Positions 17,549 to 52,190 of a DNA stretch of 64,000 nucleotides are shown here, piece after piece; the stretch's first letter is position 1, and the number at the start of each line of letters is the position of its first letter. The notes below the pieces were generated by a model, which saw only the letters and a list, made by a program, of their open reading frames with translations, searched no databases and had not been told where the DNA came from. Source of the stretch: a virus; IMG/VR virus record IMGVR_UViG_3300022902_000004, positions 126,268 through 190,267 of that record; one strand, given 5' to 3'. The position numbers and the translations under genes are program-made.

Positions 17549-17605
17549 TAACTATAAGTATTGAGGAATTCGTAAAATAGTCAAAACCGTATCCGGTGGT
17601 GGTAT

Positions 17606-18013: not shown

Positions 18014-18064
18014 TGAAGTTCAAAAATAAATATCTTGCTGAGAGCGAAACGTATATTTATATGC

Positions 18065-18784
18065 ATGTCACGTAGCGATCAACAATTTGAAACATTCGTC
18101 CGGTCAGTCCTCAAAGAGATCCGGGATGAAAGAAAAGGAAGTCGTGTGCTCTATCGCATTGATAAACGACCTGTCCAGGTTAGGCCTGAGCGTCGAGGTG
18201 AGGGATGGAGCAGAGACTGGTTAGCAGGTCGGGAAGACGGCGGAATCTTTATGTCGACCAATCCGCGAGGTATTCGAGCCAACCATCACATTGTTGGTCA
18301 CGTTTATGCTTATCGCGTTCCTGAGTGGGCTATCGCTAAGAGCGGTGGCTTACATCGTTTCGACTGGGGAACTGAGGTTCTTATCAAAAATGACATCTGG
18401 GAAAAAATCAAACACACCGGGGAACTCAAATTTTTGGGTAAATCAATGTCAGACGATAAACTTGACATGGATGCTTGGTATGGTGATGGTTCAGCATGGG
18501 AAAGAAGGGAAGCTGATGATTTCAGAAGAAGACAGAACAAAGATCCTGCCGTAAAATTTGAGGTAGAGTTACGGCGCATGTTGGGTTCTGCAAAGGCTGC
18601 ACACCAAGATCCGGAGCATAGCCTGCTAGGCGTCCAGATGTTATCGTTGCGTGACAGGAGGCATCGCTTTTCGATTGTCAATCAGGCGATCAAAACGGAT
18701 CACCGATTCATTATACCAACAGAGTTGCCGGCATGGAAAACATTACGGGACATACTTCGAGATTCAATCGCTGAAGATTCTTAG
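18065..18784 (+). CDS. hypothetical protein, plus-strand; possible ADP-ribosyltransferase-like motif order (YR ... STN ... E)
   Basis: Starts MSRSDQQFETF (ATG 18065). Divergent from the 17606..18013 gene. Motifs LYRID, FMSTNPRG, GTEVLI. Speculative. Confidence 0.45.
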   Translation: MSRSDQQFETFVRSVLKEIRDERKGSRVLYRIDKRPVQVRPERRGEGWSRDWLAGREDGGIFMSTNPRGIRANHHIVGHVYAYRVPEWAIAKSGGLHRFDWGTEVLIKNDIWEKIKHTGELKFLGKSMSDDKLDMDAWYGDGSAWERREADDFRRRQNKDPAVKFEVELRRMLGSAKAAHQDPEHSLLGVQMLSLRDRRHRFSIVNQAIKTDHRFIIPTELPAWKTLRDILRDSIAEDS

Positions 18785-19287
18785 ATGATCCTGTCCATTC
18801 CTTTAATTCTAATCTCCGCAGTGGCTTCAAGATCGCATTTATCGCAACCCGTCATAAACACAACAACCTTGTTTCCCACTTCATCGCTGGCATAAACAGG
18901 AATCCCGTCTAAAGTCCCGATCACTGGCCATTCTGTTTTCGCCGTGCAGCAACTGCAATGATGGTATATTCCGCGAAACCAATGCGTTGCCTCAAGGACA
19001 TTTTGAATATCACGTGAAACAATGATTCCCGATGTCATCCCTGTTATACCGTTGTCTGTTATTTTCCGCCATGCGTCGTGGACAGCCTCGGCCAAAATCG
19101 AATACCACTCTGTCACAGTTCCATAAAACAATGGGCGTGCCTCCTCGTCGGCGCAATCCTCACCTGTCTCTTTTAAGACATACCTTCCCGGCATTCGATG
19201 CCAATATGTCACGTAGTCAGGCGGTCGGCTTCCATCAAGAATTTTGCGCATAACTGCTGGGTCTGGTGTCGGATATGGTTTTATCAT
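18781..19287 (-). CDS. hypothetical protein (Cys-rich: HHCSCC, CDKCD)
   Basis: 168-aa ORF. -10-like TATAAT and SD AGAGGTAAAATAA precede the ATG. Confidence 0.5.
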   Translation of the reverse strand: MIKPYPTPDPAVMRKILDGSRPPDYVTYWHRMPGRYVLKETGEDCADEEARPLFYGTVTEWYSILAEAVHDAWRKITDNGITGMTSGIIVSRDIQNVLEATHWFRGIYHHCSCCTAKTEWPVIGTLDGIPVYASDEVGNKVVVFMTGCDKCDLEATAEIRIKGMDRII

Positions 19288-19341
19288 TTATTTTACCTCT
19301 GTATGAAAATATTATACTATGATTCAAGAGGAAATAAAATT

Positions 19342-19731
19342 ATGAAACACAAAACAAAACATAAGATAATCACGCCGGCGGATCTTCCTGATTACGAAGA
19401 AATGGGTGAACTGTACACTGATATGAATGACTTCCTGGGCAAAACACCGATGCTGGGGACACATATCATGCAATCTGAGTTGCCGTCCTGTCTTGTTTTT
19501 TATGTTGCTGGTGATTCCGTGCAAAGTGTTGCCGTAAGCGTTTCATCGCACAAAGACGAAATGCTATCGCTTGAAGAGCTTGTTGAAAGACAGAACGATG
19601 ATGATTTTTACGTTGTGTATAAAAACAGGGTTCCTAGCGCAACGTTCAGCCCGCGTGGTGCCCCGATCGTGGATCCAAGTAAATGTTATCGATTCAAGAA
19701 AGTCCCTGTCTACAGAGACTTTAGCATTTAG
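19342..19731 (+). CDS. hypothetical protein, plus-strand
   Basis: Starts MKHKTKHKIITPADL. SD GAGGAA 9 nt upstream. TATACT -10-like element upstream. Converges on and overlaps the ParB-like gene by 11 nt. Confidence 0.35.
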   Translation: MKHKTKHKIITPADLPDYEEMGELYTDMNDFLGKTPMLGTHIMQSELPSCLVFYVAGDSVQSVAVSVSSHKDEMLSLEELVERQNDDDFYVVYKNRVPSATFSPRGAPIVDPSKCYRFKKVPVYRDFSI

Positions 19732-20692
19732 CCAATTGGCACCAACGCTCTGTCAATAGATTCCCATCACGCTCAGCAGATTCTTTCTGTGGGCTTAATG
19801 GGCTTTTGATATTGATTTCAGCGTTCTGCAGCTTGTCATAAATCGCTGCCTTTCCAGCTTTACCGCCAATTGATTTGTCGTCAAGTTGGGGCATATCCTC
19901 TCGGGCGGGCGCTTTCGTGTTGCTTGGCACAGTTGCCAGGTTTGCCGAAATCTTCTTGATGATTTTCACGATCACTTCTTTAGGATCAGCACCTGGTTTG
20001 AAGCCTGCCCATTTTGCAATGGTCTTATCTTTTGATGAGTTCGAAACCATTTCATCGTTTAGCATTGGGCCGGGGGCTCGACGGTCTACCTGGCGTCCCA
20101 CATTTGCTGCCATCATCTTTTCAATTTCGCTCGATGACTTGCCCAGAATGTTGTTTGCGATCTTTCCTGATGCTGTTGGCATATCCTGGTTTGGATCTTT
20201 GTGTGCTGCGATGGCAAGTTGAGCTGCGGCGAGTTTCTGGGTTGTGTCTCCAGGAAGCTCTAAATCTTCGGCGCTGATTACACCATCCGGTCCACTGATT
20301 GCCCATACACCTGACCATCTATGGTGCCCATCGATCACATCATCGCCTGATACGGTAATTGAGCCGGGAGCGTCTGTTGTGTTTGAGGAGATTGCTTTTG
20401 CAAGAGCCTTTGCACTTCCCAATGGAAACGCCGCCGACTTCATCATGTCAATTTCTTTCTGTGTAGGTTTGAAATCCCGAATTTGTCTCATTGCTGGTTT
20501 TGACACTTTCGTCGTGTCGTCCGCTTTGACATTGTCGTGAGTGCCATGAAGGGCAGCCTTCAACTCATCCGGGTCAGGATGGTTGTCTACGAACGATCGT
20601 ACTGCACCGGGTCCACCCTTGGCAGCCTTGGCAATATCGTCAGTCACATCCTCAAAAAGGACATCAACAAGTTTTGGATAACGATATGCCAT
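19721..20692 (-). CDS. ParB/Srx-like nuclease-domain protein (putative)
   Basis: Motif VIDGHHRW after FKPTQKEID resembles the ParB N-terminal nuclease fold core (DGHHR). Confidence 0.4.
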   Translation of the reverse strand: MAYRYPKLVDVLFEDVTDDIAKAAKGGPGAVRSFVDNHPDPDELKAALHGTHDNVKADDTTKVSKPAMRQIRDFKPTQKEIDMMKSAAFPLGSAKALAKAISSNTTDAPGSITVSGDDVIDGHHRWSGVWAISGPDGVISAEDLELPGDTTQKLAAAQLAIAAHKDPNQDMPTASGKIANNILGKSSSEIEKMMAANVGRQVDRRAPGPMLNDEMVSNSSKDKTIAKWAGFKPGADPKEVIVKIIKKISANLATVPSNTKAPAREDMPQLDDKSIGGKAGKAAIYDKLQNAEINIKSPLSPQKESAERDGNLLTERWCQLAKC

Positions 20693-21006
20693 TAGTAATG
20701 CGAGTACCGTTTTGTTTCAATTGCCCTTAGCTCCCTGGCAAGGGTAAGATAACCTAGCGTATCTGCTGGCCCCGCGACTACTTCTAGCAAGGCAAGTTCA
20801 GCGAATTCGCCACCCTCATCATCACCCAACTCATCAGCCGCATCGGCCATTACAATTTCAAGAAAATTCTCAACCTGATATTCAAGTGCAGATCGTGTTT
20901 CAATGGGGGTGTGCATGGCTAGCGCTCGTTTGCCGACGCGTCCTTCGCTCATTTTTGATTTTTCTTTACGGATTGCTTTCCGTAATTGGTTTTCTGTTAT
21001 TTTCAT
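20692..21006 (-). CDS. MKIT-tag family protein (putative internal protein)
   Basis: Family-conserved start MKITENQLRKAIRKE at 21006 (SD AGGAAAGGA). The ORF-track 5' extension is unsupported by family conservation. Confidence 0.55.
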   Translation of the reverse strand: MKITENQLRKAIRKEKSKMSEGRVGKRALAMHTPIETRSALEYQVENFLEIVMADAADELGDDEGGEFAELALLEVVAGPADTLGYLTLARELRAIETKRYSHY

Positions 21007-21080
21007 GATACCTGTGTCCTTTCCTGTACGCCCTAAACACGCCATTGGTAGGTTACCTAAGCGTAATGTAAAGAAGCTGC

Positions 21081-21320
21081 CTAGTATGCATCGTGTGATT
21101 GCTCGTATCCATCATCCCGAACTTGCTGCAGGGCGTATCTGAATTCTTCTTCTATGTCGGAATATGACAGACCGGTCGACAGTCCGCCCGTAATCAATGT
21201 TTTTAGATCTTCCGCAAAGAAGTTGCTTGTTTGAAAACGACCATCTGGACTTTTCATTTCTGCCAGTTTTGATTTTTCGTGGCGGATAACATTACGTAGC
21301 TGGTTTTCTGTAATCTTCAT
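21081..21320 (-). CDS. MKIT-tag family protein (putative internal protein)
   Basis: MKITENQLRNVIRHE. SD GGAG. Preceded by a member of the conserved promoter family (21373..21400). Confidence 0.6.
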   Translation of the reverse strand: MKITENQLRNVIRHEKSKLAEMKSPDGRFQTSNFFAEDLKTLITGGLSTGLSYSDIEEEFRYALQQVRDDGYEQSHDAY

Positions 21321-21372
21321 TCTGATGCTCCGTTACGATCATAAATATCATGTCGGGTCGCTTTATGAATAT

Positions 21373-21400
21373 ATTTTATCACACCAGCACGAAACTTACA
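21373..21400 (-). promoter_or_regulatory. sigma70-like promoter family member (TGTAAG-N16-TAAAAT)
   Basis: Coding-strand sequence CGTGTAAG TTTCGTGCTGGTGTGA TAAAAT. Overlaps the stop codon of the upstream gene. Precedes MKIT genes 21320..20692. Confidence 0.5.
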
Positions 21401-22085
21401 CGGGCCCAACTTTCTTTGCAGGAACAGTTTTTCCGCGCCACATGGTGCCGTAGGTTTTGTTGCGCCTGTTCGGTGGGATACGGTCGCCATAAGAGTTGCT
21501 TGCAGCCAGGAATGGGGTGTGAATATGCCTCACCACCGGCCCATCATAATTCTTGTATTGTGCCATCGATGCTTTATCAACAAGCACGATGTTGTTGAAC
21601 TCTTCGATGAATTGGCCAACCATGATGTCAAACCAAACAGTAAGCCCGTCCATGCGACTGAATTCTTCAGATTGAACTCGGTGCTCATAATCAGTCAGAG
21701 AGAATTTTGTCCTCAACCTTGATGTTTCTGCGCAGCCCACACCTTCTTCATATGGGGTCTCCATTGCTTTCCATTCAAAATCGACGCCGTCAAAAACTCG
21801 CCTGATAAGCGGAAACACATTTTGTTGGGCCAGGTTGAACGCTTCCTGATTCCACGTTCTTGGACACGAACGATGTCGGGAATGCATATCTTCAATTTCG
21901 CGCAGAATTAGTTTCGATTGATTCTCAAAAAGGATTGCGTAATTGAGAGCTTTTTCCTGAGACAGGTTGTCCAGGATTTGGGTGTGACTCCACTTACTGA
22001 TGAGATGCTGGTGATGCTGACTTAACACGGCGGGTGTCACAGTAACATCGTCATTGTTAGATTCATTTAGCATGTTAGCTGACAT
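21396..22085 (-). CDS. hypothetical protein
   Basis: 229-aa ORF between MKIT family clusters. Overlaps the next gene by 19 nt. Confidence 0.5.
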   Translation of the reverse strand: MSANMLNESNNDDVTVTPAVLSQHHQHLISKWSHTQILDNLSQEKALNYAILFENQSKLILREIEDMHSRHRSCPRTWNQEAFNLAQQNVFPLIRRVFDGVDFEWKAMETPYEEGVGCAETSRLRTKFSLTDYEHRVQSEEFSRMDGLTVWFDIMVGQFIEEFNNIVLVDKASMAQYKNYDGPVVRHIHTPFLAASNSYGDRIPPNRRNKTYGTMWRGKTVPAKKVGPV

Positions 22086-22492
22086 TTTATTCCTGGGTCG
22101 ACATCGTATTTCCCGATCGGGGTTTTGAGCTGCGTATGAAGATCTGCAAGCGTCTTGTTTGCAAGTGCTTCACCATATGCCGACGCGACCTCTCCTATCG
22201 GTAATGTGCCTGCTTTCGTTAGCTTTAGTCCGGGTGGTCCACCGACAGATGAGCAAACCACGCGCTCATCTTTGAATGGGTATGGCATTGGGTCGATTAC
22301 TTTTCTTGCTGGTTGCCATGGTGGGTAATCGACTTTGGGCTCCCCTTTGAGCTCCTCCATTGTCGGTGTTACCTTTGTCAAGACCAACGCTAGGTGTGCC
22401 TTTATCATTCGTACCTGTTCTGGTTTTACGTCGTCCGTATCAGAGATTTCAAAGAATCCCTGGAGCCAGTATGCAAAATCTCTTGCTGTCAT
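22067..22492 (-). CDS. hypothetical protein
   Basis: 141-aa ORF on the dominant strand. Confidence 0.45.
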   Translation of the reverse strand: MTARDFAYWLQGFFEISDTDDVKPEQVRMIKAHLALVLTKVTPTMEELKGEPKVDYPPWQPARKVIDPMPYPFKDERVVCSSVGGPPGLKLTKAGTLPIGEVASAYGEALANKTLADLHTQLKTPIGKYDVDPGIKCQLTC

Positions 22493-22504
22493 TTCGTTCT
22501 CCTG

Positions 22505-22780
22505 TTATAGTCTTGGTTCGATTTGTTCTGCTGCCAATAACTCTACGGCTGTGTCGGCAAACTCAGCGAACCAAAGAACCTGATCCCAGCATTTTCGATG
22601 TACATCAGCCCGAAAGAATGCGATTGGTTTCAAAATGCTGGGTGAATGCTCAGCAATGATGATATTTGGTGTAATGTCAATATACGCCGCGAACTTTGTT
22701 GCATTGGTTAGGGGCTGGTACGATGCTACTTTGCGTACGATGTGAAAAGGAGCCAGGGCGAATTTTGTTAGGCGGTTCAT
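22505..22780 (-). CDS. hypothetical protein
   Basis: 91-aa ORF filling what would otherwise be a 284-nt gap. ATGA-type overlap with the upstream gene. Confidence 0.3.
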   Translation of the reverse strand: MNRLTKFALAPFHIVRKVASYQPLTNATKFAAYIDITPNIIIAEHSPSILKPIAFFRADVHRKCWDQVLWFAEFADTAVELLAAEQIEPRL

Positions 22781-23466
22781 TCGTCGTCCTCGTCAATGTA
22801 CTCTATTTTGTTCATCCCGAGACGTTCCATCATGCTGTCTATAAGTTCGTCGGCACCCTCTTCGATTGGAATCGCTGGGATGTGAAATTCTTGATATAAA
22901 AGGCTGTGAAATTCTTGATGCGTTTTGCATTCGGTGTATGGTTTTAAGTCTTTTCTTTCTATAACAACGCCGGGTGCATTGAGCCTACAATATTTTGTGG
23001 CTTCGTACGCTTCATCGCTTGTCGCATAACCCGCACCTAAAATATGACCAAACTCCCAAACGGCTGCGCGCAAATCCCACTCTGGATTCATTTCCCAGCG
23101 AGGCATGTCTCGTGAAACAACGAAAAAATTGCCTGTGGATGCGGCCGCATCTTGGTACGATATTTCGCTAGCATATACTTCTGCGCGTGTCTTGGACATA
23201 TCGCATTGAGAAGGCCAGGAATGACCCACCGGCCAGTGATTATTGCCTCCGAAAGCTTTTGCGTATTGTGTGTTCCATTCTTTGACGCACTCGTCGGCAC
23301 CACCACCGTGGTCCAAAGCGCCTTGGATAAACCCTTCCAAATTCATATTGCGGATTTCTTCAGCGATTGCTTTGACATTGCTAATCACCGGGCGTAACTT
23401 CGTCGAGAACGCAATATCCGTACCTACAACGCGAAGCGTCAACAAAAACATGGGCTTACTCATCAC
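22777..23466 (-). CDS. hypothetical protein with degenerate metzincin-like motif (WEFGHILGAGY)
   Basis: GTG-ATG start. -10 TATAAT and SD GGAGG upstream. Motif aligns to HEFGHxLGxxH with first and third His replaced. Confidence 0.45.
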   Translation of the reverse strand: MMSKPMFLLTLRVVGTDIAFSTKLRPVISNVKAIAEEIRNMNLEGFIQGALDHGGGADECVKEWNTQYAKAFGGNNHWPVGHSWPSQCDMSKTRAEVYASEISYQDAAASTGNFFVVSRDMPRWEMNPEWDLRAAVWEFGHILGAGYATSDEAYEATKYCRLNAPGVVIERKDLKPYTECKTHQEFHSLLYQEFHIPAIPIEEGADELIDSMMERLGMNKIEYIDEDDE

Positions 23467-23507
23467 AACCTCCGTTTAGAGATTATATGATGAATGAGCT
23501 GGATGTA

Positions 23508-23861
23508 TTATGTTACGAAATCTAAGTGGGTGTATTTCCTGGGTGCACGCTTATTTAGCATCCCCTTACCTGCGTTTGCTGCCATGAACTGAACGAATTC
23601 TTCTTTCGTTCCCGGGCTGTCATTGTGGCTAAAATCGATGTTCATTAAGCTTTCATCAGCGTAATCTTCTGATGGGAAACGGGCCGGCGGGGAAACCCTT
23701 ACATATGACTTGTATGGTTTGTAGCCCATCGTCTTCAAATCTTCCGGTGTCAGCGTTTCCATCCAGAGTTCACCAGACATAAACCTGAGCCAGGCCTCCG
23801 TTTTGTTTCCACCTAAGGATTCCCGAATGAGATGCCTGAGTTTGGATTCTGTGATTTTCAT
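23508..23861 (-). CDS. MKIT-tag family protein (putative internal protein)
   Basis: Family start MKITESKLRHLIRE at 23861. ATGA overlap with the upstream member. SD AGGA. Confidence 0.55.
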   Translation of the reverse strand: MKITESKLRHLIRESLGGNKTEAWLRFMSGELWMETLTPEDLKTMGYKPYKSYVRVSPPARFPSEDYADESLMNIDFSHNDSPGTKEEFVQFMAANAGKGMLNKRAPRKYTHLDFVT

Positions 23862-24100
23862 TCGTAATCCTGGTACACCGTGTTTTGGCTTTGTTGGCCG
23901 TCTCTTCGTCTGCCGGCCACAGATCGACGAACTGCTTGAATACATTTATCAACAATCGTCGCGGCCTGATAGTGTCCTGCTTCTTCTAGTTTCCATATTG
24001 CACTGCCGAGACTTTGTATCGCCTCACTAACTAGTCGAGCTTTTTCGTTTGAGGAGGTTTCTTTTACCAGCTTCCTGAGTTGAGATTCTGTGATTTTCAT
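23858..24100 (-). CDS. MKIT-tag family protein (putative internal protein)
   Basis: MKITESQLRKLVKE. SD AAGGTAGG. Translationally coupled (ATGA overlaps). Confidence 0.6.
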   Translation of the reverse strand: MKITESQLRKLVKETSSNEKARLVSEAIQSLGSAIWKLEEAGHYQAATIVDKCIQAVRRSVAGRRRDGQQSQNTVYQDYE

Positions 24101-24576
24101 TGATGCCTACCTTTGTATTTTCTTGTCGCTACAACCGGTTCTGCAAATGTAAGGACTGTCTCATACGTCGTTCTATTCCCAGAAAAGCGAGCCAATGACC
24201 AAGAATTGCCGGAGGAATCCGTCCATGTATGTTTCGATTTAGTCCAGTTTCCGGCGGGATGATGGTCATCCGAAGCACCTGAGTGTTTGAAACCTAACGC
24301 CTCCATCGCTTCCACCAGTTGCCAGTCAAAGAAATTCCGCAGTGTCTTCGACCATGAAACACGGGTCGCCATTCCAGGAACAGTGTCATCAACATCAGTC
24401 GATCGTCCGTTTCCTCCAGGGATTCCCGCTTTGATCGCAGCGAGCTGTTTTTCCGTTACTTCCAAACGCGTACGACTATTAAAACTGTCAGAAACAGTGA
24501 TGTACCTCTTTCGCGATGATTGCTCAGATAGCAGCTTCTTCACGACAATTTTTAGTTGTGATTCGGTGATTTTCAT
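24097..24576 (-). CDS. MKIT-tag family protein (putative internal protein, 159 aa)
   Basis: MKITESQLKIVVKKLLSE. SD AGGAAGG. Confidence 0.6.
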   Translation of the reverse strand: MKITESQLKIVVKKLLSEQSSRKRYITVSDSFNSRTRLEVTEKQLAAIKAGIPGGNGRSTDVDDTVPGMATRVSWSKTLRNFFDWQLVEAMEALGFKHSGASDDHHPAGNWTKSKHTWTDSSGNSWSLARFSGNRTTYETVLTFAEPVVATRKYKGRHQ

Positions 24577-24815
24577 TGTGACCTTCCTATCAGGGTCAGG
24601 GCAATCGCCCGAATGACAGGCAGCTTCCCAACTTGTTCACCGTGTGTCGCGAGCTCTTTCGCAATTGCTTGACAAAACTCTTTCTTTCCCAACAGGCTTT
24701 CGATGGCTTTTTGTTCGTCTGGGCCTAACTGATTGAATAGCTGTTCTGCCCGATCGGTTTTGCCTTCAGCTTGCTCTCGGATTAGTTTCCTGAGCTGTGT
24801 TTCTGTGATTTTCAT
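24573..24815 (-). CDS. MKIT-tag family protein (putative internal protein)
   Basis: MKITETQLRKLIRE. SD GGTGGAGAA. Confidence 0.6.
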   Translation of the reverse strand: MKITETQLRKLIREQAEGKTDRAEQLFNQLGPDEQKAIESLLGKKEFCQAIAKELATHGEQVGKLPVIRAIALTLIGRSQ

Positions 24816-25027
24816 TGGTTCTCCACCGCGGTGTCGATCGCACTACGAACAGCATCGGCTCCGATTTCATGACCGATGGAAGCCAGAATAACCTCGGCGC
24901 GCTTTAGGAACTCCAGTGCCCTGTCCATCTCATGATCCCAAGTGAAATCTGATGTTTCATTTTGGCCCCAGTCTGAGACGTGCGATTCTTTTATCAGTTT
25001 TCTGAGTTCTGATTCTGTGATTTTCAT
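24812..25027 (-). CDS. MKIT-tag family protein (putative internal protein)
   Basis: MKITESELRKLIKE. First gene after promoter 25083..25110. Confidence 0.6.
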   Translation of the reverse strand: MKITESELRKLIKESHVSDWGQNETSDFTWDHEMDRALEFLKRAEVILASIGHEIGADAVRSAIDTAVENQ

Positions 25028-25082
25028 TTGTGCCTCGTATATGTATCACTAAATATCTAATTGCACCCGAAATTACATAAAT

Positions 25083-25110
25083 ATTATACCACACATACAC
25101 GAATATTACA
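25083..25110 (-). promoter_or_regulatory. sigma70-like promoter (TGTAAT-N16-TATAAT with TGG extended -10), member of conserved family
   Basis: Coding-strand sequence ATGTAAT ATTCGTGTATGTGTGG TATAAT. Drives the coupled MKIT gene operon 25027..23508. Confidence 0.55.
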
Positions 25111-25112
25111 TG

Positions 25113-25149
25113 CCAAAGACGAAGGGCTCCCAGATTTCTCCAGGAGCCC
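25113..25149 (-). terminator. hairpin terminator after first MKIT-family gene
   Basis: Minus-strand RNA reads GAAGGGCUCC-loop12-GGAGCCCUUC followed by GUCUUUGG. Confidence 0.5.
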
Positions 25150-25180
25150 TTCAAACGTTTAGCTAACCGAAGCTAGCCAG

Positions 25181-25432
25181 TCACACAGACATTGGGTCAT
25201 CAAGATCGAGACCCTCAGCATTGTAGTCCATCCAGTACAAATCAGAATCGTCGGCCTCAGACTGAATGTAGTTCATTATCTCATCCTTGCTATGACCTGT
25301 TTCATGTTCCGCTTCGGCCCATGGGATTATGCCTGGTGATGGCGCGAGATTGTGGAGCGTTATCCAGAGATCACGACGCGAATGTTTTTGCTCTCTGATG
25401 AGTTTCCTGAGATTTGATTTTGTGATTTTCAT
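25181..25432 (-). CDS. MKIT-tag family protein (putative internal protein)
   Basis: MKITKSNLRKLIRE. Followed by a hairpin terminator. Confidence 0.6.
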   Translation of the reverse strand: MKITKSNLRKLIREQKHSRRDLWITLHNLAPSPGIIPWAEAEHETGHSKDEIMNYIQSEADDSDLYWMDYNAEGLDLDDPMSV

Positions 25433-25464
25433 TGATGTCCCCTATTGTATTTCTAATTATCTGC

Positions 25465-26460
25465 TTAGAATCGAATCACACAAAATTCCTTATCGTTCTG
25501 AAAGCTCCAATCGATTGCCGCTTGATATTTCAATGGGTCGTTGTCATTTTCCTGACCTTTGACTTCGTAAAGCATTGAACCTGAGAGTGATAGGAAGTCT
25601 GGGACATAGGTTCGCTCGACGCCGTTTGGGTCTTTGTATGGGATGCGGATGTCGTGTTTCTTGGTGACTGGCTCGCCCCGAGATACACATTCGTCCAGGA
25701 AACGGGACTCCCACCCGGAGTGCATGTATTCTTCTTGCTGTGTGAACGGGTTGAACTTCCACTCGGTCTTGAATGGCGCCTGCGGCCCGATGACGCCGTC
25801 CTCTAGCAACTGGATGGCACGTTCGCTGTATACTTTTTTCATTTCTGGATTGTTTTGCCACCAACGTTTTGATGCAACTGATTTCTTCTTCTTTACATCC
25901 TGCCTTGCGGCGGTTTTATGGCCGGCAAGTCTTTGCTTCTCACGGTACTCGTCAGTTCTTAGCACCTCAACCCTTTTATCATAATCCTCGTCCCACCTTT
26001 TTTGAGCCGCCTTACTGTAACGCTCTTTTTGCTCAGATGTTCTTACCTTTCCAAAGTTTGGACTGTCGGCTCCTCGTTTTCCATACATTCCATTATTTTT
26101 GCCTTTGTTACTGTGTCCACGAAGATATTCAGGAAACCCGCCCTTCGCCCATTTGAGTTTCGTATTGCAGCCGCACTTGCATACCGGCCAGATGTTGTTA
26201 TGTTCTGTACGAACTTGATATGCCGGCCATTCAATTTTATGCTCTTTTCTTACGTGACGAGCAAGAACATTGTTTGAATTTGCAACAAGCTCGTCGCAAA
26301 TCTTACACTTTATTGTGAACTCGACGACAGGTTTTGCATAAATCTCTTTTGCGATATCCTTATGCCAATAACCAACATGAGCACCGACGGATCTCGGCGT
26401 ATTTCTCAACATCTTGTCGCAGTACTTGCACTTTACTTTTTCTATTTGTTTTTCCATCAT
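25465..26460 (-). CDS. freestanding homing endonuclease-like protein (NUMOD3-like repeats + C-terminal PD-(D/E)xK nuclease motif)
   Basis: Probable start MMEKQIEKVKCKYC at 26460. NUMOD3-like MYGKRGADSPNFGKVRTSEQKERYSK. C-terminal YVPDF...YEVKG is PD-(D/E)xK-like. Inserted between MCP gene and MKIT cluster. Confidence 0.55.
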   Translation of the reverse strand: MMEKQIEKVKCKYCDKMLRNTPRSVGAHVGYWHKDIAKEIYAKPVVEFTIKCKICDELVANSNNVLARHVRKEHKIEWPAYQVRTEHNNIWPVCKCGCNTKLKWAKGGFPEYLRGHSNKGKNNGMYGKRGADSPNFGKVRTSEQKERYSKAAQKRWDEDYDKRVEVLRTDEYREKQRLAGHKTAARQDVKKKKSVASKRWWQNNPEMKKVYSERAIQLLEDGVIGPQAPFKTEWKFNPFTQQEEYMHSGWESRFLDECVSRGEPVTKKHDIRIPYKDPNGVERTYVPDFLSLSGSMLYEVKGQENDNDPLKYQAAIDWSFQNDKEFCVIRF

Positions 26461-26508
26461 ACAATAAATATATAGGAAATGAATGAATTGTATAGGAAAA
26501 AGATGGTT

Positions 26509-26546
26509 AAAAAGGAAAAGGCGCCCTTTGTGGGGGCGCCTTTCCA
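26509..26546 (-). terminator. intrinsic terminator downstream of major capsid gene (GC hairpin GGCGCCC/GGGCGCC + U-tract), palindromic and potentially bidirectional
   Basis: Minus-strand RNA reads GGCGCCCCCACAAAGGGCGCC UUUUCCUUUUU. Preceded by a second AU-rich 8-bp hairpin (26549..26568). Confidence 0.7.
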
Positions 26547-26574
26547 ATCATCTAGTGGTAACTAGATGGTCAAC

Positions 26575-45741: not shown

Positions 45742-45781
45742 GTTTCTAAGTATAGCGTCATCTCAGAAAATGTATAGGAAA

Positions 45782-48277: not shown

Positions 48278-48343
48278 ATACAGTTCCGTCGGTCAGGCAC
48301 ACTACAACGTGTAATCCTAATTATCGACGGGCGCAAAGTAAAC

Positions 48344-48589
48344 TCAATCTACATCACCAACCAATTGTTTTCGTTGTGCATGTGACAAGAAAAGAATCCG
48401 ATTTGCTAGAATATAGCACTCGGTGCAACCCTCGCCTAGGGCGAATGTAATGCAGTGCATGATGTCGTCGTCGTTGACATTGAAGTCATCTAAGACGATA
48501 TGTAAGCAACACCCGGCAGCGTTACGGTTGTATGCAGCTTCAACGCCGGCATATATTTTGTGATCAATTACAAGCTTATTTTCGTTCAT
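48344..48589 (-). CDS. hypothetical Cys-rich small protein
   Basis: Probable start MNENKLVIDH (48589, SD GGAG). Part of the early-gene island. Confidence 0.3.
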   Translation of the reverse strand: MNENKLVIDHKIYAGVEAAYNRNAAGCCLHIVLDDFNVNDDDIMHCITFALGEGCTECYILANRILFLSHAQRKQLVGDVD

Positions 48590-48857
48590 CGAGGAACTCC
48601 GACACTTTCTTGTTCCATACAACAACTGCTGGCCACCAATTATAGCCTGGATCGGGTACGTGGTAAACGACCTGCCCAATAGCGACAGTCCAACCGTCGG
48701 GTACACGCATAACATGAGGCGGCGTCGGTCCTGCGGAGATGCGGAAATTCCTGGCACCGACCCATTTCTCTTCAGCTAACGCTGCCCAGGTCATGCCGTC
48801 TAGATACTCACGTCTTCCGAGATCGCGGGTTTCAAGAGCTTCCATTTTATCTTTCAT
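48576..48857 (-). CDS. hypothetical protein
   Basis: Probable start MKDKMEALETRD at 48857. Trp-rich. Confidence 0.3.
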   Translation of the reverse strand: MKDKMEALETRDLGRREYLDGMTWAALAEEKWVGARNFRISAGPTPPHVMRVPDGWTVAIGQVVYHVPDPGYNWWPAVVVWNKKVSEFLDERK

Positions 48858-49752
48858 GCTGATCCTCATCCCACATGTATCGCGGGTCATCAGCGAAATT
48901 CTTGTACAATGTGGCGCCACCGGCGACCAACCCAAATACGTCCAGATCGAACTCAGCCTTTCCCTTTGTCATGGAAAACTGGCCAGGCTTCCCTTTCTCA
49001 TAGTCGGCGACCTTGCGATAAATGTCAACCGGAGGAACCCATTTGAACGGAATGTGTGTGGTGCAGTGCTCGCCTGCATTGTAATACGGCACTCGCTGGA
49101 TCGGATCATCAGGATCATCCAAAATGATGTCAGGATGGGCAGCCAAAATCTCCGCTGCTTTCTTGAGATCATATCGACCTTCGGTGAATGAACCATTCAT
49201 GTAGTCGTAGTGACGACCTGCCGGTAATGGTAAACCCTTTGCATCAAAAATGAGGTGATTGTAATTGTATTCCTCGATCAAAATCAACTTTTTGCCTTTC
49301 TCAATCGCAGCAAACGGTTTCTCACACTCACAAGCACTCAATTTGTCATAAACGTCCATGTACCCATAGCCGACTGACTGAACGATATCGAGATATTCCT
49401 GGGTGACAAGCTTGAAAATAGTATGGTTACCGTCACGCGTGGTGAAGTAGCTGCGCGACATTCGGAGCTGACCTTGACCTCGCAGGATTGCATCGAGCTC
49501 TGATTTCAAACAGATCCCTTCTGACATTTCAACATCATACTTCTTGCGCTGGGATTCATCCTGTAGGTTCACCAGAGATTCATCTTCGGCTCGTGATGCC
49601 ATTCGACACACAACGAAACCCAGATCGTTGTCTGGAAGAGGCAGAAATTCAATGTTGCGGGATGTGACCCTTGTAACCTTACTCCAGTTTCGTTGTGCGT
49701 TTTTCATCCTAACCCTCCCTGGCACCCAATGATTTCCTTGAGCACAGCCCAC
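48847..49752 (-). CDS. hypothetical protein (301 aa)
   Basis: Dominant-strand ORF in the early-gene island. No motif recognized. Confidence 0.45.
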   Translation of the reverse strand: MGCAQGNHWVPGRVRMKNAQRNWSKVTRVTSRNIEFLPLPDNDLGFVVCRMASRAEDESLVNLQDESQRKKYDVEMSEGICLKSELDAILRGQGQLRMSRSYFTTRDGNHTIFKLVTQEYLDIVQSVGYGYMDVYDKLSACECEKPFAAIEKGKKLILIEEYNYNHLIFDAKGLPLPAGRHYDYMNGSFTEGRYDLKKAAEILAAHPDIILDDPDDPIQRVPYYNAGEHCTTHIPFKWVPPVDIYRKVADYEKGKPGQFSMTKGKAEFDLDVFGLVAGGATLYKNFADDPRYMWDEDQHER

Positions 49753-49970
49753 GGGATTTCTGCTGTTACCGCCTGGAATCCGGCGTAACCTTGTCCGCTC
49801 GTCTCACCTAAAGCGCTAAGGCCGAGGTCACCACACCAGACTTCGATGTTCTCTGGTCCTTCAATGTCGAAGCCAGGCTGACCTGACCGGATCGTGATCT
49901 CCCAGCCCTGACAATGCCAGCGGGAAATTCCGTACTCGTCAGTTTTCCAAGTTTTTTCTTCGTGTGTCAT
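49704..49970 (-). CDS. hypothetical protein
   Basis: 88-aa ORF directly downstream of promoter 49992..50019. SD GGGGGTGA. Confidence 0.4.
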   Translation of the reverse strand: MTHEEKTWKTDEYGISRWHCQGWEITIRSGQPGFDIEGPENIEVWCGDLGLSALGETSGQGYAGFQAVTAEIPWAVLKEIIGCQGGLG

Positions 49971-49991
49971 GCTTCACCCCCGTACACATCA

Positions 49992-50019
49992 ATTATACCA
50001 CGATATGATGACTCTTACA
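49992..50019 (-). promoter_or_regulatory. sigma70-like promoter family member (TGTAAG-N16-TATAAT)
   Basis: Coding-strand sequence CGTGTAAG AGTCATCATATCGTGG TATAAT, 20 nt before the SD of 49704..49970. Confidence 0.55.
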
Positions 50020-50491
50020 CGATTCGGCTGGAGTTATTTGTCTCCATTTTGTCTGGTTCGAAACCTGGGATGCGAATCTTATATGTTGATGCCTGCCATG
50101 CTGACTCGTCATGACCGTACCACATCCATCCTGCCCTGGCATTATGCGGCGCTACATTGGCACGCTGATAAACAAGACCTTCACGGTTCAGTCGCATCAA
50201 TGCCTTGTGAACATCTTTTTCATATGCTTCAAGCTTGATCGCTAGCCCCTCTTTCGTCACACGGGGCATAAAATGATGGACTTCGAATGGGTCATCCTTC
50301 GTTTTGCTTTTGACAACCCATTCTCGAATTTTTGCTTGTACTACTTCCTTGACCTCTTCGTAGCAATCTCGTTTCTTTCGCCGGATGTGAACCTTTTTAC
50401 GCTTATGGTTTCCGCCACCTGAGAGTCTCCCGGCGGGATGCATTGGGAGCTCACGCCTATCCGGACTATTACTTGAATACTTTCCGTGCAT
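50015..50491 (-). CDS. hypothetical basic protein, possible winged-helix DNA-binding (LMRLNREGLV)
   Basis: 158 aa with a K/R-rich N-terminus. ATGA overlap with the upstream gene. Confidence 0.4.
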   Translation of the reverse strand: MHGKYSSNSPDRRELPMHPAGRLSGGGNHKRKKVHIRRKKRDCYEEVKEVVQAKIREWVVKSKTKDDPFEVHHFMPRVTKEGLAIKLEAYEKDVHKALMRLNREGLVYQRANVAPHNARAGWMWYGHDESAWQASTYKIRIPGFEPDKMETNNSSRIV

Positions 50492-50829
50492 TACACATTC
50501 TCCTTGACATATGCGAACACAAGTTCCTTCTCGTCTGGCGTCAGTTTCTTCAGCGCTTGCGACAAGGCAACATGTTTTAGTTGTCCCGAGTCCAGGACTC
50601 CTTTTAGATATGTCGCCGGGACGTTTTGGTCAGTGATGCACTGAATCGCAGTGCTGTACACCTTCACTTCCCTAATCGCAAAAGAGGCTTCGTAAGGGCC
50701 ACCCATCGCTTCATGCTTCCAGCCAGATTTGCGGATAACATCGGCGTCCTCGTAGTTTAGAAAATAACCTACTGTTTTGCTGCTTCGCCCTTCACAATCG
50801 GCGGCGGCCTTTAGCTCGAAAACTTTCAT
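50491..50829 (-). CDS. hypothetical protein
   Basis: 112-aa ORF, translationally coupled to its neighbours. Confidence 0.4.
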   Translation of the reverse strand: MKVFELKAAADCEGRSSKTVGYFLNYEDADVIRKSGWKHEAMGGPYEASFAIREVKVYSTAIQCITDQNVPATYLKGVLDSGQLKHVALSQALKKLTPDEKELVFAYVKENV

Positions 50830-51533
50830 TTCTTACCTTCCTGGACGTGAATTAACACATCAAGCAATCCGCGCTGGTTGCGGAGGATGATTTTGAGGTT
50901 CTCATACGCCGGGTATTGACGTGGGAACTTTCGGCGGGCATGCCGAATCATTGGGAAGAACCACGTGTCCAGCTCACCGACGTACTTTTTCTGCTTGGGA
51001 ACGTCGAAAACGCCCTGCATCGTTTGGAGATTGTGGGCACGGTCAGCCAATTTCACCAGGCTGGCGATTGGATCCTCACTCATCTCACTGAAATACGAAT
51101 CGTATGTCTTGACAAGACCGGCTGATTTCTTCGAAAGGTGCCAGACTGCAGTAGCAACTCGCTCGCCGAACTTTGTCTCAAGATCGTTTCGAGTGAAACG
51201 TTCGGAGTGATCTTCCAGCACGTCATGAAGAATCGCCGCTGCCAGCGTATCCTCAGGGAACATAAAATTCGCCTCGAGGGTTGTTAATAGCCGGGTCACC
51301 GAAAGCTGGTGATGAAACTTAGGAGTCAGTCCATCCTTACGGGTTCCGCATTCAAGGGCACGGACCAGCTCCAACGCCTCGAGTGCCTTGTAATAACCCT
51401 TACCGTCAAGCCAGCCTCGCATGGTGGAAAGCTGCTTACGATGACGAACCTCAATCTCTGACGGTTCATGACATGCTGGTAACTGTTCAATGGTTTTCAT
51501 AGGCACCTCTAGTCGTTCAAAACGTGCAAGCAA
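50826..51533 (-). CDS. RelA/SpoT-type HD-domain hydrolase (small alarmone hydrolase-like, putative (p)ppGpp/ppApp pyrophosphohydrolase)
   Basis: FHHQLSVTRL ... AAILHDVLEDHSERFTRNDLETKFGERVATAVWHLSKK ... KLADRAHNLQTM match the Rel/SpoT hydrolase signature (H..H, HDxxED, FG..VA.LV, KLADRLHNMRT). Confidence 0.75.
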   Translation of the reverse strand: MLARFERLEVPMKTIEQLPACHEPSEIEVRHRKQLSTMRGWLDGKGYYKALEALELVRALECGTRKDGLTPKFHHQLSVTRLLTTLEANFMFPEDTLAAAILHDVLEDHSERFTRNDLETKFGERVATAVWHLSKKSAGLVKTYDSYFSEMSEDPIASLVKLADRAHNLQTMQGVFDVPKQKKYVGELDTWFFPMIRHARRKFPRQYPAYENLKIILRNQRGLLDVLIHVQEGKK

Positions 51534-51763
51534 ATGCCAGTTTCCTCGTTCTTGTATTTCGTTCCGCGGATTTCATTCATGTGCTCGACATATCCGGTGA
51601 ATTGGAACATCTTCTTTTCACCAGTGTGATGACTCACAACAATCGGCTCGTTGGTCCATGAGTAGAAATTGCCTGGCCAACGAAGATCAGATGCCTCAGC
51701 GACCAACAGCTTATCTGCTGAGTGCCAGCTCATGGTATGTGTGCTAATCTCTTCAAGAAACAT
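51509..51763 (-). CDS. hypothetical protein
   Basis: 84-aa ORF. Start ambiguous (M1 or M11). Confidence 0.3.
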   Translation of the reverse strand: MFLEEISTHTMSWHSADKLLVAEASDLRWPGNFYSWTNEPIVVSHHTGEKKMFQFTGYVEHMNEIRGTKYKNEETGICLHVLND

Positions 51764-51896
51764 GGTGTTGTCCCTGGTCGTATGTTGTGCTGCCTGGTAC
51801 CTTAGTATGCATTGAAATCATTCGGAGCGTACACAGGTCATTCTGGGGTCCTTCATGTTCATTCGTAAGCATCTGGTTTCCCCTGGTTACATAAGA

Positions 51897-51924
51897 ATTA
51901 TATCACGTTTTTCGGACTCTTACA
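51897..51924 (-). promoter_or_regulatory. sigma70-like promoter family member (TGTAAG-N16-TATAAT)
   Basis: Coding-strand sequence CGTGTAAG AGTCCGAAAAACGTGA TATAAT. Confidence 0.5.
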
Positions 51925-52141
51925 CGTTATACACGACATATTTCCAAGACGGGAAACAAACATATCCTGAGTCGCATAGCACCTGGGCCGTGGTTGTTTC
52001 ATAACTGTACCCGCCATGACTAGACAGCCTTGTCCCAGTCTTATGAACTGCAATGAAAAGGCCGAACCCACAATGCTCTGCGGTGCTGCGTGTCATGACA
52101 GCAACCAAATCACCCTTCTTCATGCTCACCTTTCGATTCAT
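51920..52141 (-). CDS. small hypothetical protein
   Basis: Likely start MKKGDLVAVM (SD AAGGTGA). Directly downstream of promoter 52152..52179. Confidence 0.3.
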   Translation of the reverse strand: MNRKVSMKKGDLVAVMTRSTAEHCGFGLFIAVHKTGTRLSSHGGYSYETTTAQVLCDSGYVCFPSWKYVVYNV

Positions 52142-52151
52142 GGTACAATAG

Positions 52152-52179
52152 TACTATATCACGACGGAAGGAAGATTAC
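52152..52179 (-). promoter_or_regulatory. sigma70-like promoter family member (TGTAAT-N16-TATAGT)
   Basis: Coding-strand sequence CGTGTAAT CTTCCTTCCGTCGTGA TATAGT. First promoter after structural gene 52191..53480. Confidence 0.5.
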
Positions 52180-52190
52180 ACGAAAATACC

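What the first reader, a model, noticed from the sequence alone, without database searches (positions are those of the whole stretch)
49992..52179. Family of five near-identical sigma70-like promoters with fixed architecture CRTGTAAK-N16(ending GTGR)-TATAAT
Seen in sequence on the coding (minus) strand at 25083..25110, 21373..21400, 49992..50019, 51897..51924 and 52152..52179. Each has a -35-like TGTAA(G/T), usually preceded by CG; exactly 16 nt of variable spacer whose last four bases are GTG(G/A), an extended -10-like TGn; then TATAAT (variants TAAAAT, TATAGT). The conservation exceeds what sigma70 needs. It resembles the way T4 early promoters have their own extended consensus (GTTTAC...TGnTATAAT). 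All five precede non-structural genes (MKIT family, early-gene island). That suggests a phage-specific early promoter class, possibly also recognized by a phage factor.
Basis: seen in the sequence. Interest (0 to 1): 0.6.

Follow-up and report, generated by a model that had tools for sequence, protein, structure and literature searches.

The report
Family-specific early-type promoters of a jumbo phage
The five look-alike sites are real promoters of a class that an uncultured family of very large marine phages uses by the dozen, with a perfect bacterial -10 region but its own unusual upstream box, and in this window they head gene cassettes that were inserted into the virus's structural gene block.

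Summary
There are five exact matches on the coding strand and none in shuffles; the last site is 52153-52180, one base off. They are sigma70-type extended -10 promoters: CRTGTAA at -36..-30, an invariant 17-nt spacer, YGTGR-TATAAT, and a purine 7 nt downstream. The -35-like box is not TTGACA.

They sample a much larger class. Another 21.7-kb, early-type region assigned to the same genome (>=318 kb) has ten more. Related marine contigs carry up to 16 per 12 kb. Of 193 TGnTATAAT sites there, 146 have TGTAA at exactly that distance, and most others have TGCAA.

Relatives' structural modules lack the motif (4 relaxed hits in 2.44 Mb). All five window sites lie in two lineage-specific islands (48278-52190 and 17311-26574) inserted between conserved late genes. 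In a sibling phage (~85% identity), a cassette replacement starts just after one promoter and ends exactly at the next. This resembles the PeSL cassettes of T4-like phages.

Early timing, and what reads CRTGYAA (host sigma70 region 4 or a phage factor), are inferred, not shown. The 'MKIT' genes may encode packaged head proteins rather than non-structural ones.

Verdict: a new variant of a known kind, of moderate interest.

The parts
52146..52182 (-). Promoter P5: CG-TGTAAT-N12-GTGA-TATAGT, predicted +1 G at 52146. It lies in the 49-nt gap after the conserved 429-aa gene and heads island 1 (67-aa ORF, ATG at 52123).
   Evidence: The orthologous site is conserved in sibling L314, where its -10 reads TATAAT, and in L123.
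51890..51926 (-). Promoter P4: CG-TGTAAG-N12-GTGA-TATAAT. The TAA of TGTAA is the stop of ORF 51920-52141. Downstream lie a 38-aa ORF (ATG 51871), an 84-aa ORF, and the HD-domain gene 50826-51500.
   Evidence: Homology with sibling L314 begins exactly at CGTGTAAG.
49985..50021 (-). Promoter P3: CG-TGTAAG-N12-GTGG-TATAAT. The TAA of TGTAA is the stop of ORF 50015-50491. The downstream 88-aa ORF starts at ATG 49970.
   Evidence: The ortholog in L330 differs only at 3 spacer positions. It is 29/30 identical to non-orthologous site L334:17530.
25076..25112 (-). Promoter P2: CA-TGTAAT-N12-GTGG-TATAAT. It heads the run of MKIT-family genes (first ATG at 25027).
21366..21402 (-). Promoter P1: CG-TGTAAG-N12-GTGA-TAAAAT. 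The TAA of TGTAA is the stop of ORF 21396-22085. The downstream MKIT gene is 21081-21320.
   Evidence: The 28-nt core is identical in sibling L300 while nearby sequence diverged.
25122..25177 (-). Two hairpins (25162-25177 and 25122-25151) followed by a U-rich tail, immediately upstream of P2. This is a terminator-promoter composite, the only PeSL-style stem-loop among the five sites.
   Evidence: MFE -37 kcal/mol, z -5.3
48278..52190 (-). Accessory island 1 (about 3.9 kb, about 11 small ORFs including an HD_4 hydrolase). It lies between the 429-aa gene (52191-53480) and the 831-aa gene (45782-48277), which are adjacent in relatives. It contains P5, P4 and P3.
17311..26574 (-). Accessory island 2 (about 9.2 kb) between the major capsid gene (26575-28473) and the homolog of 16972-17310, which lie 0.8-1 kb apart in the closest relatives. 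It holds a TnsA-like endonuclease gene, seven MKIT paralogs, P2 and P1.
25049..25056 (-). Second motif ATATTTAG (class ATAYTTAK, a candidate late promoter) between P2 and the first MKIT start codon.
21341..21348 (-). Second motif ATATTTAT between P1 and the MKIT start codon. It is conserved in sibling L300 while the 11 nt separating it from P1 diverged.

Best explanation
The five sites are functional promoters of one phage-family-specific class. Its consensus is C-R-T-G-Y-A-A-(G) at -36..-29, an invariant 17-nt spacer ending Y-G-T-G-R, TATAAT, usually A, and a purine start 7 nt further on. The extended -10 half (TRTGn + TATAAT) is a near-perfect target for regions 2.4 and 3.0 of a housekeeping sigma factor. 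The most likely mechanism is therefore direct recruitment of the host's sigma70-type RNA polymerase, with no need for phage protein synthesis, which makes this an early class. The upstream CRTGYAA box sits exactly where region 4 of sigma binds. It keeps the T-34, G-33 and A-30 of TTGACA but is otherwise a family-specific sequence, and what reads its extra conserved bases is not known. In the genome as a whole the class precedes almost every small gene of early-type regions. In this window the promoters occur only in two islands of accessory genes inserted into the late structural module, and there they give the inserted cassettes their own transcription, as in a moron. Because roughly 45-50 nt of promoter is nearly identical at many non-orthologous places, the promoters also act as patches of homology at which cassettes are exchanged between related phages, as proposed for the PeSL elements of T4-like phages. 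What is shown: the motif, its statistics, its position and orientation, its conservation in siblings, its genome- and family-wide distribution, and the breakpoints at promoters. What is inferred: promoter activity, use of host sigma70, early timing, and the recombination mechanism.
For: Statistics: 5 matches against 0 in shuffles.

Placement and orientation: all sites are co-directional with the genes and lie 11-55 nt upstream of start codons.

Selective constraint: in four ortholog pairs at about 81-86% identity, motif positions changed at 2/72 and spacer positions at 7/48 (Fisher p=0.03).

Same genome: the exact sequences of the window's 429-aa protein, of its capsid protein and of P0002 all report a longest contig of 318,267 bp. 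The P0002 region (L334) has 10 sites in 21.7 kb, all 20-98 nt upstream of starts of small or nucleotide-metabolism genes.

Family: dense same-strand arrays occur in marine contigs, for example 16 in 12.4 kb and 10 in 8.2 kb. Their early-region proteins are 40-57% identical to those of L334/L294.

Unbiased test of the upstream box: 146 of 193 TGnTATAAT sites have TGTAA exactly 19 nt upstream of TG, and only 2 are off by one. The freely varying positions are C-36 87%, G-35 84%, Y-17 96%, G-16 81% and R(+1) 93%.

CRTGYAA without a -10 is not enriched in the window (26 found, about 33 expected), so it is a promoter part and not a free-standing operator.

Canonical TTGACA-type matches are at shuffle level in the window and in L334.

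Structural modules of relatives have 4 relaxed hits in 2.44 Mb. The window's five sites all lie in two islands absent from relatives.

Breakpoints at promoters: window versus L314 and L334 versus L311. Promoter-only homology of 80-95% over 40-80 nt occurs between otherwise unrelated DNA.

The PeSL precedent is described in PMC4122927.
Against: There are no transcription data, so no start site or timing is demonstrated. The host is unknown and no cultured relative exists.

The -35-position hexamer GTGTAA matches TTGACA at only 3/6, yet it is conserved at 85-99%. A plain sigma70 contact does not explain this.

There is no A/T-rich UP element.

Two of the five sites drive MKIT genes. If these are packaged head proteins, they would need late expression, and a late-like motif lies between promoter and gene.

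Only one of the five sites has the upstream stem-loop that defines a PeSL.

Only about 95 kb of a genome of at least 318 kb could be inspected. L334 is assigned to the window's genome because three exact proteins report an identical longest-contig length, not because the contig itself was read.
Confidence: 0.68

Rival explanations
1. These are activator-dependent (middle-type) promoters. Host polymerase binds the extended -10, while the CRTGYAA box is read by a phage-encoded or virion-delivered protein that replaces or remodels sigma region 4, as in T4 MotA/AsiA sigma appropriation. A phage-encoded sigma with group-1-like -10 recognition is an alternative.
For: The upstream box is non-canonical yet 85-99% conserved, including two bases outside the classical hexamer. 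It is kept across related phages whose G+C ranges from 36 to 56% and which therefore probably have different hosts. The strict motif is essentially absent from 185,579 bacterial and archaeal species genomes (2 hits). About half of T4 middle promoters also carry TGn (PMC2988021).
Against: The box lies at the canonical -35 position (-36..-30, 17-nt spacer), not centred at -30 like a MotA box, and it keeps the T-34/G-33/A-30 of TTGACA. No other, canonical early class is visible in the early-type region L334. No MotA or AsiA Pfam domain is among the called genes of L003/L334, although most of the genome was not seen. An 18-base consensus would be rare even in a host that preferred it, so one search is weak evidence.
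Confidence: 0.2
2. These are ordinary host-like sigma70 promoters, and their mutual resemblance only reflects the host's consensus or chance.
For: The -10 and TGn elements are textbook sigma70 signals. Many unrelated phages in IMG/VR carry TTGTAA-N17-TGnTATAAT promoters.
Against: None of 100 shuffles had a match, against 5 found. The generic TTGACA-based scan does not call these sites and is not enriched over shuffles. C-36, G-35, the 17-nt spacing and Y-17/G-16 are conserved over about 165 sites. No bacterial genome shows the pattern repeatedly.
Confidence: 0.05
3. These are not primarily promoters. They would be repeated recombination or mobile-element sequences (ends of mobile cassettes, or homing-endonuclease-associated repeats) that merely resemble promoters.
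For: The sites coincide with indel and replacement breakpoints. Homing-endonuclease-like genes lie near both islands.
Against: The spacer and flanks vary while exactly the sigma-contact positions are fixed. Orientation is strictly co-directional with genes. The distance to Shine-Dalgarno and start codon is constant (median 24 nt from the -10 end). There is a purine at +1. There are no inverted or direct terminal repeats around the cassettes.
Confidence: 0.05

Closest known systems
T4 early promoters (Pe), the 'uber' UP/-35/TGn/-10 promoters for E. coli sigma70 polymerase (Hinton 2010, PMC2988021)
   Same: Many copies per genome. Positions outside the classical hexamers are conserved. They combine TGn with a near-perfect TATAAT, sit in front of small prereplicative genes, and belong to a phage with a T4-type capsid, terminase, portal and gp21 protease.
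   Different: There is no A/T-rich UP element. The -35-position box is CRTGYAA rather than a good TTGACA match. Spacing is essentially invariant at 17 nt. The host and timing are unknown.
PeSL (promoter-early stem-loop) cassettes of T4-like phages RB49/phi1, PST/T4 and nt-1/KVP40 (Arbiol 2010, PMC2839356; Comeau 2014, PMC4122927)
   Same: A conserved early-type promoter is repeated in hyperplastic regions and next to plastic genes inside the core. Indels and replacements between close relatives are bounded by the promoters. The promoter is the only homology between unrelated cassettes. It is associated with an internal-protein-like locus.
   Different: The defining stem-loop just upstream of the promoter is present at only one of the five window sites. 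In the early-type regions, a hairpin instead often lies at the 5' end of the transcript. The promoter consensus also differs from all reported PeSL types (TTGACA, TTTACW, TTGYVH).
T4 middle promoters (MotA box TGCTT at -30 plus a sigma70 -10, activated by MotA/AsiA)
   Same: A host-type -10 (often with TGn) is combined with a phage-specific upstream box that replaces a canonical -35.
   Different: The box sequence differs. It lies about 3 bp further upstream, at the true -35 position. No MotA or AsiA homolog was seen in the sequence available.
Extended -10 / '-16 region' TRTGn promoters (known from Gram-positive bacteria and E. coli; named from my own knowledge)
   Same: YGTGR-TATAAT fits TRTGn-TATAAT exactly.
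   Different: Such promoters usually tolerate any -35. Here a specific upstream box is retained as well.
Morons of lambdoid phages (named from my own knowledge)
   Same: Accessory genes with their own promoter are inserted between two conserved structural genes.
   Different: These are multi-gene islands. No clear downstream terminator was found, and the promoter belongs to a genome-wide class rather than being unique to the insert.

Membership tests
sigma70-type (group 1 sigma) extended -10 promoter | -10 hexamer close to TATAAT | tested here: met
   TATAAT x3, TAAAAT and TATAGT. Family-wide: T24 91%, A25 and A26 99%.
sigma70-type (group 1 sigma) extended -10 promoter | TG at -15/-14 (TGn, wider TRTGn) | tested here: met
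   GTGR in 5/5 sites. Family-wide: Y-17 96%, G-16 81%.
sigma70-type (group 1 sigma) extended -10 promoter | -35 hexamer resembling TTGACA, 16-18 nt upstream | tested here: inconclusive
   Position and spacing fit (17 nt in 146 of 148). The sequence GTGTAA matches only 3/6, and the generic scan does not call the sites.
sigma70-type (group 1 sigma) extended -10 promoter | Transcription starts about 7 nt downstream of the -10 | not testable with these tools
   Only a conserved purine at that position is seen (93% of about 165 sites).
T4 early promoters (Pe) | A/T-rich UP element at -40 to -60 | tested here: not met
   No A/T enrichment or information content upstream of -38 in 165 sites.
T4 early promoters (Pe) | Active immediately after infection without phage protein synthesis | not testable with these tools
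   The host is uncultured. Only gene context (small, nucleotide-metabolism genes) suggests an early class.
PeSL cassettes | Conserved early-type promoter repeated in hyperplastic regions | tested here: met
   The window sites occur only in lineage-specific islands.
PeSL cassettes | Stem-loop (terminator) directly upstream of the promoter | tested here: not met
   Present only at 25122-25177 before P2 (z -5.3). The upstream 45 nt of the other four sites fold no better than shuffles.
PeSL cassettes | Indels or replacements between close relatives are bounded by the elements | tested here: met
   Window versus L314: the swap runs from just after P5 to exactly the start of P4. L334 versus L311: the indel ends at a promoter and homology stops about 50 nt after it.
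PeSL cassettes | Recombination or mini-circle formation between elements | not testable with these tools
   This needs experiments or read-level data.
T4 middle promoters (MotA/AsiA dependent) | MotA box (a/t)(a/t)(a/t)TGCTT(t/c)A centred at -30, 12+/-1 bp from the -10 | tested here: not met
   The box is CRTGYAA at -36..-30, with 17 nt between it and the -10 hexamer.
T4 middle promoters (MotA/AsiA dependent) | Phage encodes MotA and AsiA homologs | tested here: inconclusive
   No such Pfam family appears among the called genes of L003/L334 or the window proteins scanned. Less than a third of the genome was visible.

The most novel reading that the evidence does not exclude
CRTGYAA at -36..-30 may be the recognition element of a phage-family-specific specificity factor: a sigma-region-4 remodeller or replacement, or a protein delivered with the DNA. 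That factor would let a whole family of uncultured jumbo marine phages, infecting hosts of very different G+C, run one private promoter code on host polymerase. It would be a second, independent 'sigma appropriation'-like system. The same conserved promoters would serve as the recombination joints that shuffle accessory cassettes across the family.
Probability: 0.2. Interest if true: 0.75.

Novelty: new variant of a known kind. Interest (0 to 1): 0.5.

Why it matters
It gives a concrete, testable promoter code for a widespread family of large marine phages that has no cultured member. More than 600 IMG/VR stretches matched the capsid query, nearly all confirmed as relatives, and the genome here is at least 318 kb. 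The code, CRTGYAAG-N11-YGTGR-TATAAT, lets one mark early-type transcription units and accessory cassettes in metagenomic contigs.

It also extends the 'conserved promoter as recombination joint' idea from cultured T4-like coliphages and vibriophages to a distant lineage.

Finally, it raises a sharp question. A box that departs from TTGACA is held almost invariant across phages of 36-56% G+C, and it is not known why. If a phage factor reads it, that would be a new way of redirecting host polymerase.

Tried and rejected
1. Megablast and tblastn against cultured phages found no close relative. The best hits were about 40% terminase identity and about 48% capsid identity, to Flavobacterium, Microcystis and Rhodothermus phages and to uncultured huge phages. 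No host or published promoter set could therefore be borrowed.

2. Homologs of the HD-domain protein (L001, L002) turned out to lie in unrelated, higher-G+C contigs without the motif.

3. Other contigs carrying the window's exact proteins are 99.99-100% identical (at most one mismatch) and gave essentially no variation.

The stricter pattern was informative.

5. Extending the window upstream by 9.4 kb found only large structural genes and no new site. Extension at the other end failed, because the plus-strand ORFs there are spurious and a coding-strand ORF of more than 1,044 aa runs off the window.

6. T4-type late promoters TATAAATA are absent (2 hits).

7. CRTGYAA as a stand-alone operator was rejected because it is not enriched without the -10.

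8. A second TGTAA at +1 as a repeated operator half-site was rejected, because it is confined to the window's close lineage and is not family-wide.

9. 5'-UTR hairpins are absent at the five window sites.

10. A literature search for the CGTGTAA motif found nothing relevant.

11. Rfam and tRNA scans of the window were empty.

12. The bacterial-genome scan gave 2 chance-level hits and no host clue.
Full report
OBSERVATION. TGTAAK-N12-GTGR-TAWART matches five times, always on the minus strand: 21373-21400, 25083-25110, 49992-50019, 51897-51924 and 52153-52180. The last is one base off the reported coordinates. None of 100 dinucleotide shuffles gave a match. Looser versions (any base at K/R/W, 12-15 nt spacing, -10 half alone plus TGTAA) recover the same five and nothing else. 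A PWM built from the five finds nothing between them (scores above 50) and the reporting threshold of 14. Aligning the sites shows more conservation than was reported. C is 2 nt before TGTAA in 5/5 and G is 1 nt before in 4/5. 'TC' occupies spacer positions 3-4 in 5/5. After the -10 hexamer come five bases and then Y-R-T-A. In promoter coordinates the upstream box occupies -36..-30, the hexamer at the -35 position is GTGTAA, the spacer is 17 nt, and YGTGR-TATAAT is an extended -10 of the TRTGn type. In three sites the TAA inside TGTAA is the stop codon of the upstream ORF.

WHAT GENOME THIS IS. Essentially all genes in the window are on the minus strand. The window encodes a T4-type large terminase, portal and major head protein and a gp21-type prohead protease (Peptidase_S77, E 8e-25). 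There is no close cultured relative. The best terminase and capsid matches (about 40% and about 48% identity) are to Flavobacterium, Microcystis and Rhodothermus phages and to uncultured huge phages. Identical copies occur in several marine metagenomes, on contigs up to 184.5 kb. The exact sequences of the window's 429-aa protein and of its capsid protein each report a longest contig of 318,267 bp, so this is a jumbo phage. IMG/VR holds many relatives. For the 429-aa protein, 287 stretches were confirmed as relatives, the 80 kept being 56-77% identical. For the capsid protein, 597 were confirmed, the 80 kept being 59-78% identical.

WHERE THE FIVE SITES LIE. In relatives the 429-aa gene is followed directly by the 831-aa gene. 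In the window, 3.9 kb of small ORFs (48278-52190) separate them, and this stretch holds the sites at 52153, 51897 and 49992. In the closest relatives the capsid gene is followed within 0.8-1 kb by the homolog of 16972-17310. The window has 9.2 kb there (17311-26574), and this stretch holds the sites at 25083 and 21373. All five sites therefore lie in two lineage-specific accessory islands inside the conserved late structural module. The structural-module loci of 160 relatives (2.44 Mb) contain only four relaxed matches. Only one of these has the CG prefix. It sits at the orthologous junction right after the 429-aa gene of the closest IMG/VR relative, L123, where it heads a different 1.2-kb island.

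THE CLASS IS MUCH LARGER. A strict version of the motif (CRTGTAAKNKTC-N8-GTGRTAWART) was scanned through IMG/VR and JGI/TARA metagenomes. Rescanning the returned loci with a relaxed pattern showed dense, same-strand arrays: 16 sites in 12.4 kb (L305), 10 in 8.2 kb (L287), 9 in 9.4 kb (L302), 7 in L294, and 6 each in L326, L316 and L311. These contigs have 36-56% G+C. Early-region proteins of L334/L294 have 40-57% identical homologs in several of them, so they belong to one broad phage family.

One array contig (L311/L285) encodes a CCA-adding enzyme. Its 80%-identical homolog P0002 reports the same 318,267-bp longest contig as the window's proteins and co-occurs with window contigs in the same samples. 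The 21.7 kb around P0002 (L334) carry ten sites, all co-directional and 20-98 nt upstream of gene starts. The genes are small ORFs, adenylosuccinate synthetase, NUDIX, a GH25 lysozyme-like gene, DenV-like Pyr_excise, a metallophosphatase and others. So in about 95 kb assigned to this genome there are 15 sites, none antisense and none deep inside a gene.

CONSENSUS. From 165 unique sites, the positions the search pattern left free are C-36 87%, G-35 84%, G-29 57%, Y-17 96%, G-16 81%, R-13 96%, T at hexamer position 3 91%, A after the hexamer 75%, and a purine at the predicted +1 93%. Nothing is conserved, and there is no A/T richness, upstream of -38. An unbiased test started from every TGnTATAAT in these loci (193 unique). 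Of these, 146 have TGTAA exactly 19 nt upstream of the TG, only one each at 18 or 20 nt, and most of the rest have CGTGCAA or CATGCAA there. The upstream box is therefore CRTGYAA and the spacing is effectively invariant. CRTGYAA without a -10 is not enriched in the window (26 found, about 33 expected). Canonical TTGACA-N16-18-TATAAT matches are at shuffle level in both window regions and in L334. In 48 of 163 sites the TAA of TGTAA is the stop codon of the upstream ORF, and in 24 more the stop is the TAA inside TATAAT. The median distance from the -10 to the start codon is 24 nt.

SELECTION. Three sibling contigs at about 81-86% nucleotide identity carry orthologs of four of the five sites. 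Across the four pairs, motif positions changed at 2 of 72; one change was R to R and the other changed TATAGT to TATAAT. Spacer positions changed at 7 of 48 (Fisher p=0.03).

CASSETTE EXCHANGE. Against sibling L314, homology runs through P5 to just past the Shine-Dalgarno sequence (window 52126). L314 then has 1.7 kb of unrelated DNA where the window has 200 nt, and homology resumes exactly at the CGTGTAAG of P4. L314 also lacks the GIY-YIG gene and the part of island 1 that holds P3. Between L334 and its sibling L311, a 390-nt indel ends at a promoter, and homology stops about 50 nt downstream of it. Several otherwise unrelated contigs match the window only over the ~50-nt promoter (80-85% identity). 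Non-orthologous promoters match each other at up to 94-95% over 39-48 nt.

This is the behaviour described for PeSL elements of T4-like phages, which are also linked to the internal-protein locus (PMC4122927). The defining upstream stem-loop is, however, present at only one window site (25122-25177, z -5.3), and the other four have none.

MECHANISM AND RIVALS. The best reading is a phage-family-specific class of strong promoters for the host's housekeeping-sigma polymerase, most likely early. These promoters give inserted cassettes autonomous expression and double as recombination joints. I put about 0.85 on 'they are promoters', about 0.55 on 'early, read by unmodified host polymerase', and 0.68 on the package.

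The main rival (0.2) is that CRTGYAA is read by a phage factor, as in the sigma appropriation seen at T4 middle promoters (PMC2988021). In its favour are the non-canonical but near-invariant box, its retention across phages of very different G+C, and its virtual absence from 185,579 species genomes (weak evidence). Against it are the canonical -35 position and spacing, the retained T-34/G-33/A-30, the lack of any other early class in L334, and the lack of a detectable MotA or AsiA domain in the limited sequence available.

Chance or host-consensus similarity, and a non-promoter repeat, are each unlikely (about 0.05).

The sites are not in an early region. They are in islands within the late module. 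The 'MKIT family' consists of seven paralogs that share only the leader MKITE(S/T/N)QLRK(L/V)IR(E/K). The phage has a gp21-type protease. From my own knowledge of T4, that enzyme cleaves after (L/I)-x-E, and T4 internal proteins carry the short N-terminal capsid-targeting leader MKTYQEFIAE. On that basis the MKIT proteins look like packaged internal proteins rather than non-structural ones.

P1 and P2 are each followed by a second motif, ATAYTTAK. This motif is 17/20 on the coding strand and mostly intergenic in front of structural genes, and at P1 it is conserved in a sibling while the sequence between it and the promoter diverged. It is a candidate late promoter, so these genes may have dual control.

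VERDICT. This is a new variant of a known kind: a T4-style early promoter class and PeSL-like cassette joints, with a previously undescribed upstream box, in an uncultured jumbo marine phage family. Interest is moderate (0.5). It would be higher if the box proves to be read by a phage factor.

Noticed in passing
window 20692-25432 (seven ORFs: 25181-25432, 24812-25027, 24573-24815, 24097-24576, 23508-23861, 21081-21320, 20692-21006) and 32742-33407: The 'MKIT' paralogs share only a 14-residue N-terminal leader, MKITE(S/T/N)QLRK(L/V)IR(E/K), and are otherwise unrelated. The phage encodes a T4 gp21-type prohead protease (Peptidase_S77, E 8e-25). This resembles the capsid-targeting leader of T4 internal proteins, cleaved after I-x-E, so the locus next to the capsid gene may be a hyperplastic internal-protein locus.
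   Followed up: partly
window, e.g. 3138-3145, 6646-6653, 30284-30291, 31755-31762, 45746-45753, 54916-54923, 25049-25056, 21341-21348: A second motif, ATAYTTAK, is 17/20 on the coding strand, with 14 copies intergenic and most of those 5-60 nt upstream of start codons, mostly of structural genes. It is a candidate late promoter. T4-type TATAAATA is absent. The nearest relatives have GTTTAGA upstream of the capsid gene.
   Followed up: partly
window 54196-54870, 44743-45741, 25465-26463: There are three homing-endonuclease-like genes: one GIY-YIG/NUMOD and two TnsA-like/NUMOD. The GIY-YIG gene is absent from sibling L314 and from L124/L126/L128, and 44743-45741 is absent from all relatives examined. 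One sits directly after the capsid gene at the edge of island 2.
   Followed up: partly
L334, L294, L326 (early-type regions of this phage lineage): Many promoter cassettes there encode a hairpin at the very 5' end of the predicted transcript (for example GUUGCCGGggauaCCGGC at +1..+18, loop GGGGAU). It could stabilise the mRNA or act as a regulatory element. It is absent at the five window sites.
   Followed up: partly
about 163 family sites in L286-L334, including window 21396-21398, 50015-50017, 51920-51922: Signals overlap. In 29% of sites the TAA of the TGTAA box is the stop codon of the upstream gene (usually Val-stop, GTG TAA). In a further 15% the stop is the TAA inside TATAAT.
   Followed up: yes
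window 26515-26545: A strong intrinsic-terminator-like hairpin (12 bp, 8 GC, U-tail) lies immediately after the major capsid gene. The ORF called at 25465-26547 therefore probably starts later.
   Followed up: no
window 21396-22085: This 229-aa island protein resembles the N-terminal region of the major capsid protein (30% identity over 82 aa, E 8e-9). It may be another capsid-directed protein.
   Followed up: no
window 50826-51500; L001, L002: Island 1 encodes an HD_4 (RelA/SpoT-type hydrolase-like) protein. Its closest IMG/VR homologs (65-67% identity) lie in unrelated contigs of 53% and 67% G+C, one of them 536 kb long. This suggests horizontal movement of the gene.
   Followed up: partly
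window 18014-19720: This 1.7-kb stretch inside island 2 has no coding-strand ORF. Only opposite-strand ORFs occur there (18035-18784, 19198-19731), without Pfam hits, and there is no Rfam or tRNA match.
   Followed up: no
window 7450-10533 and 10560-13727; 1-3132: Two adjacent paralogous proteins of about 1,030-1,055 aa are 33% identical. A coding-strand ORF of more than 1,044 aa runs off the left end of the window, and the plus-strand ORFs there are spurious.
   Followed up: no
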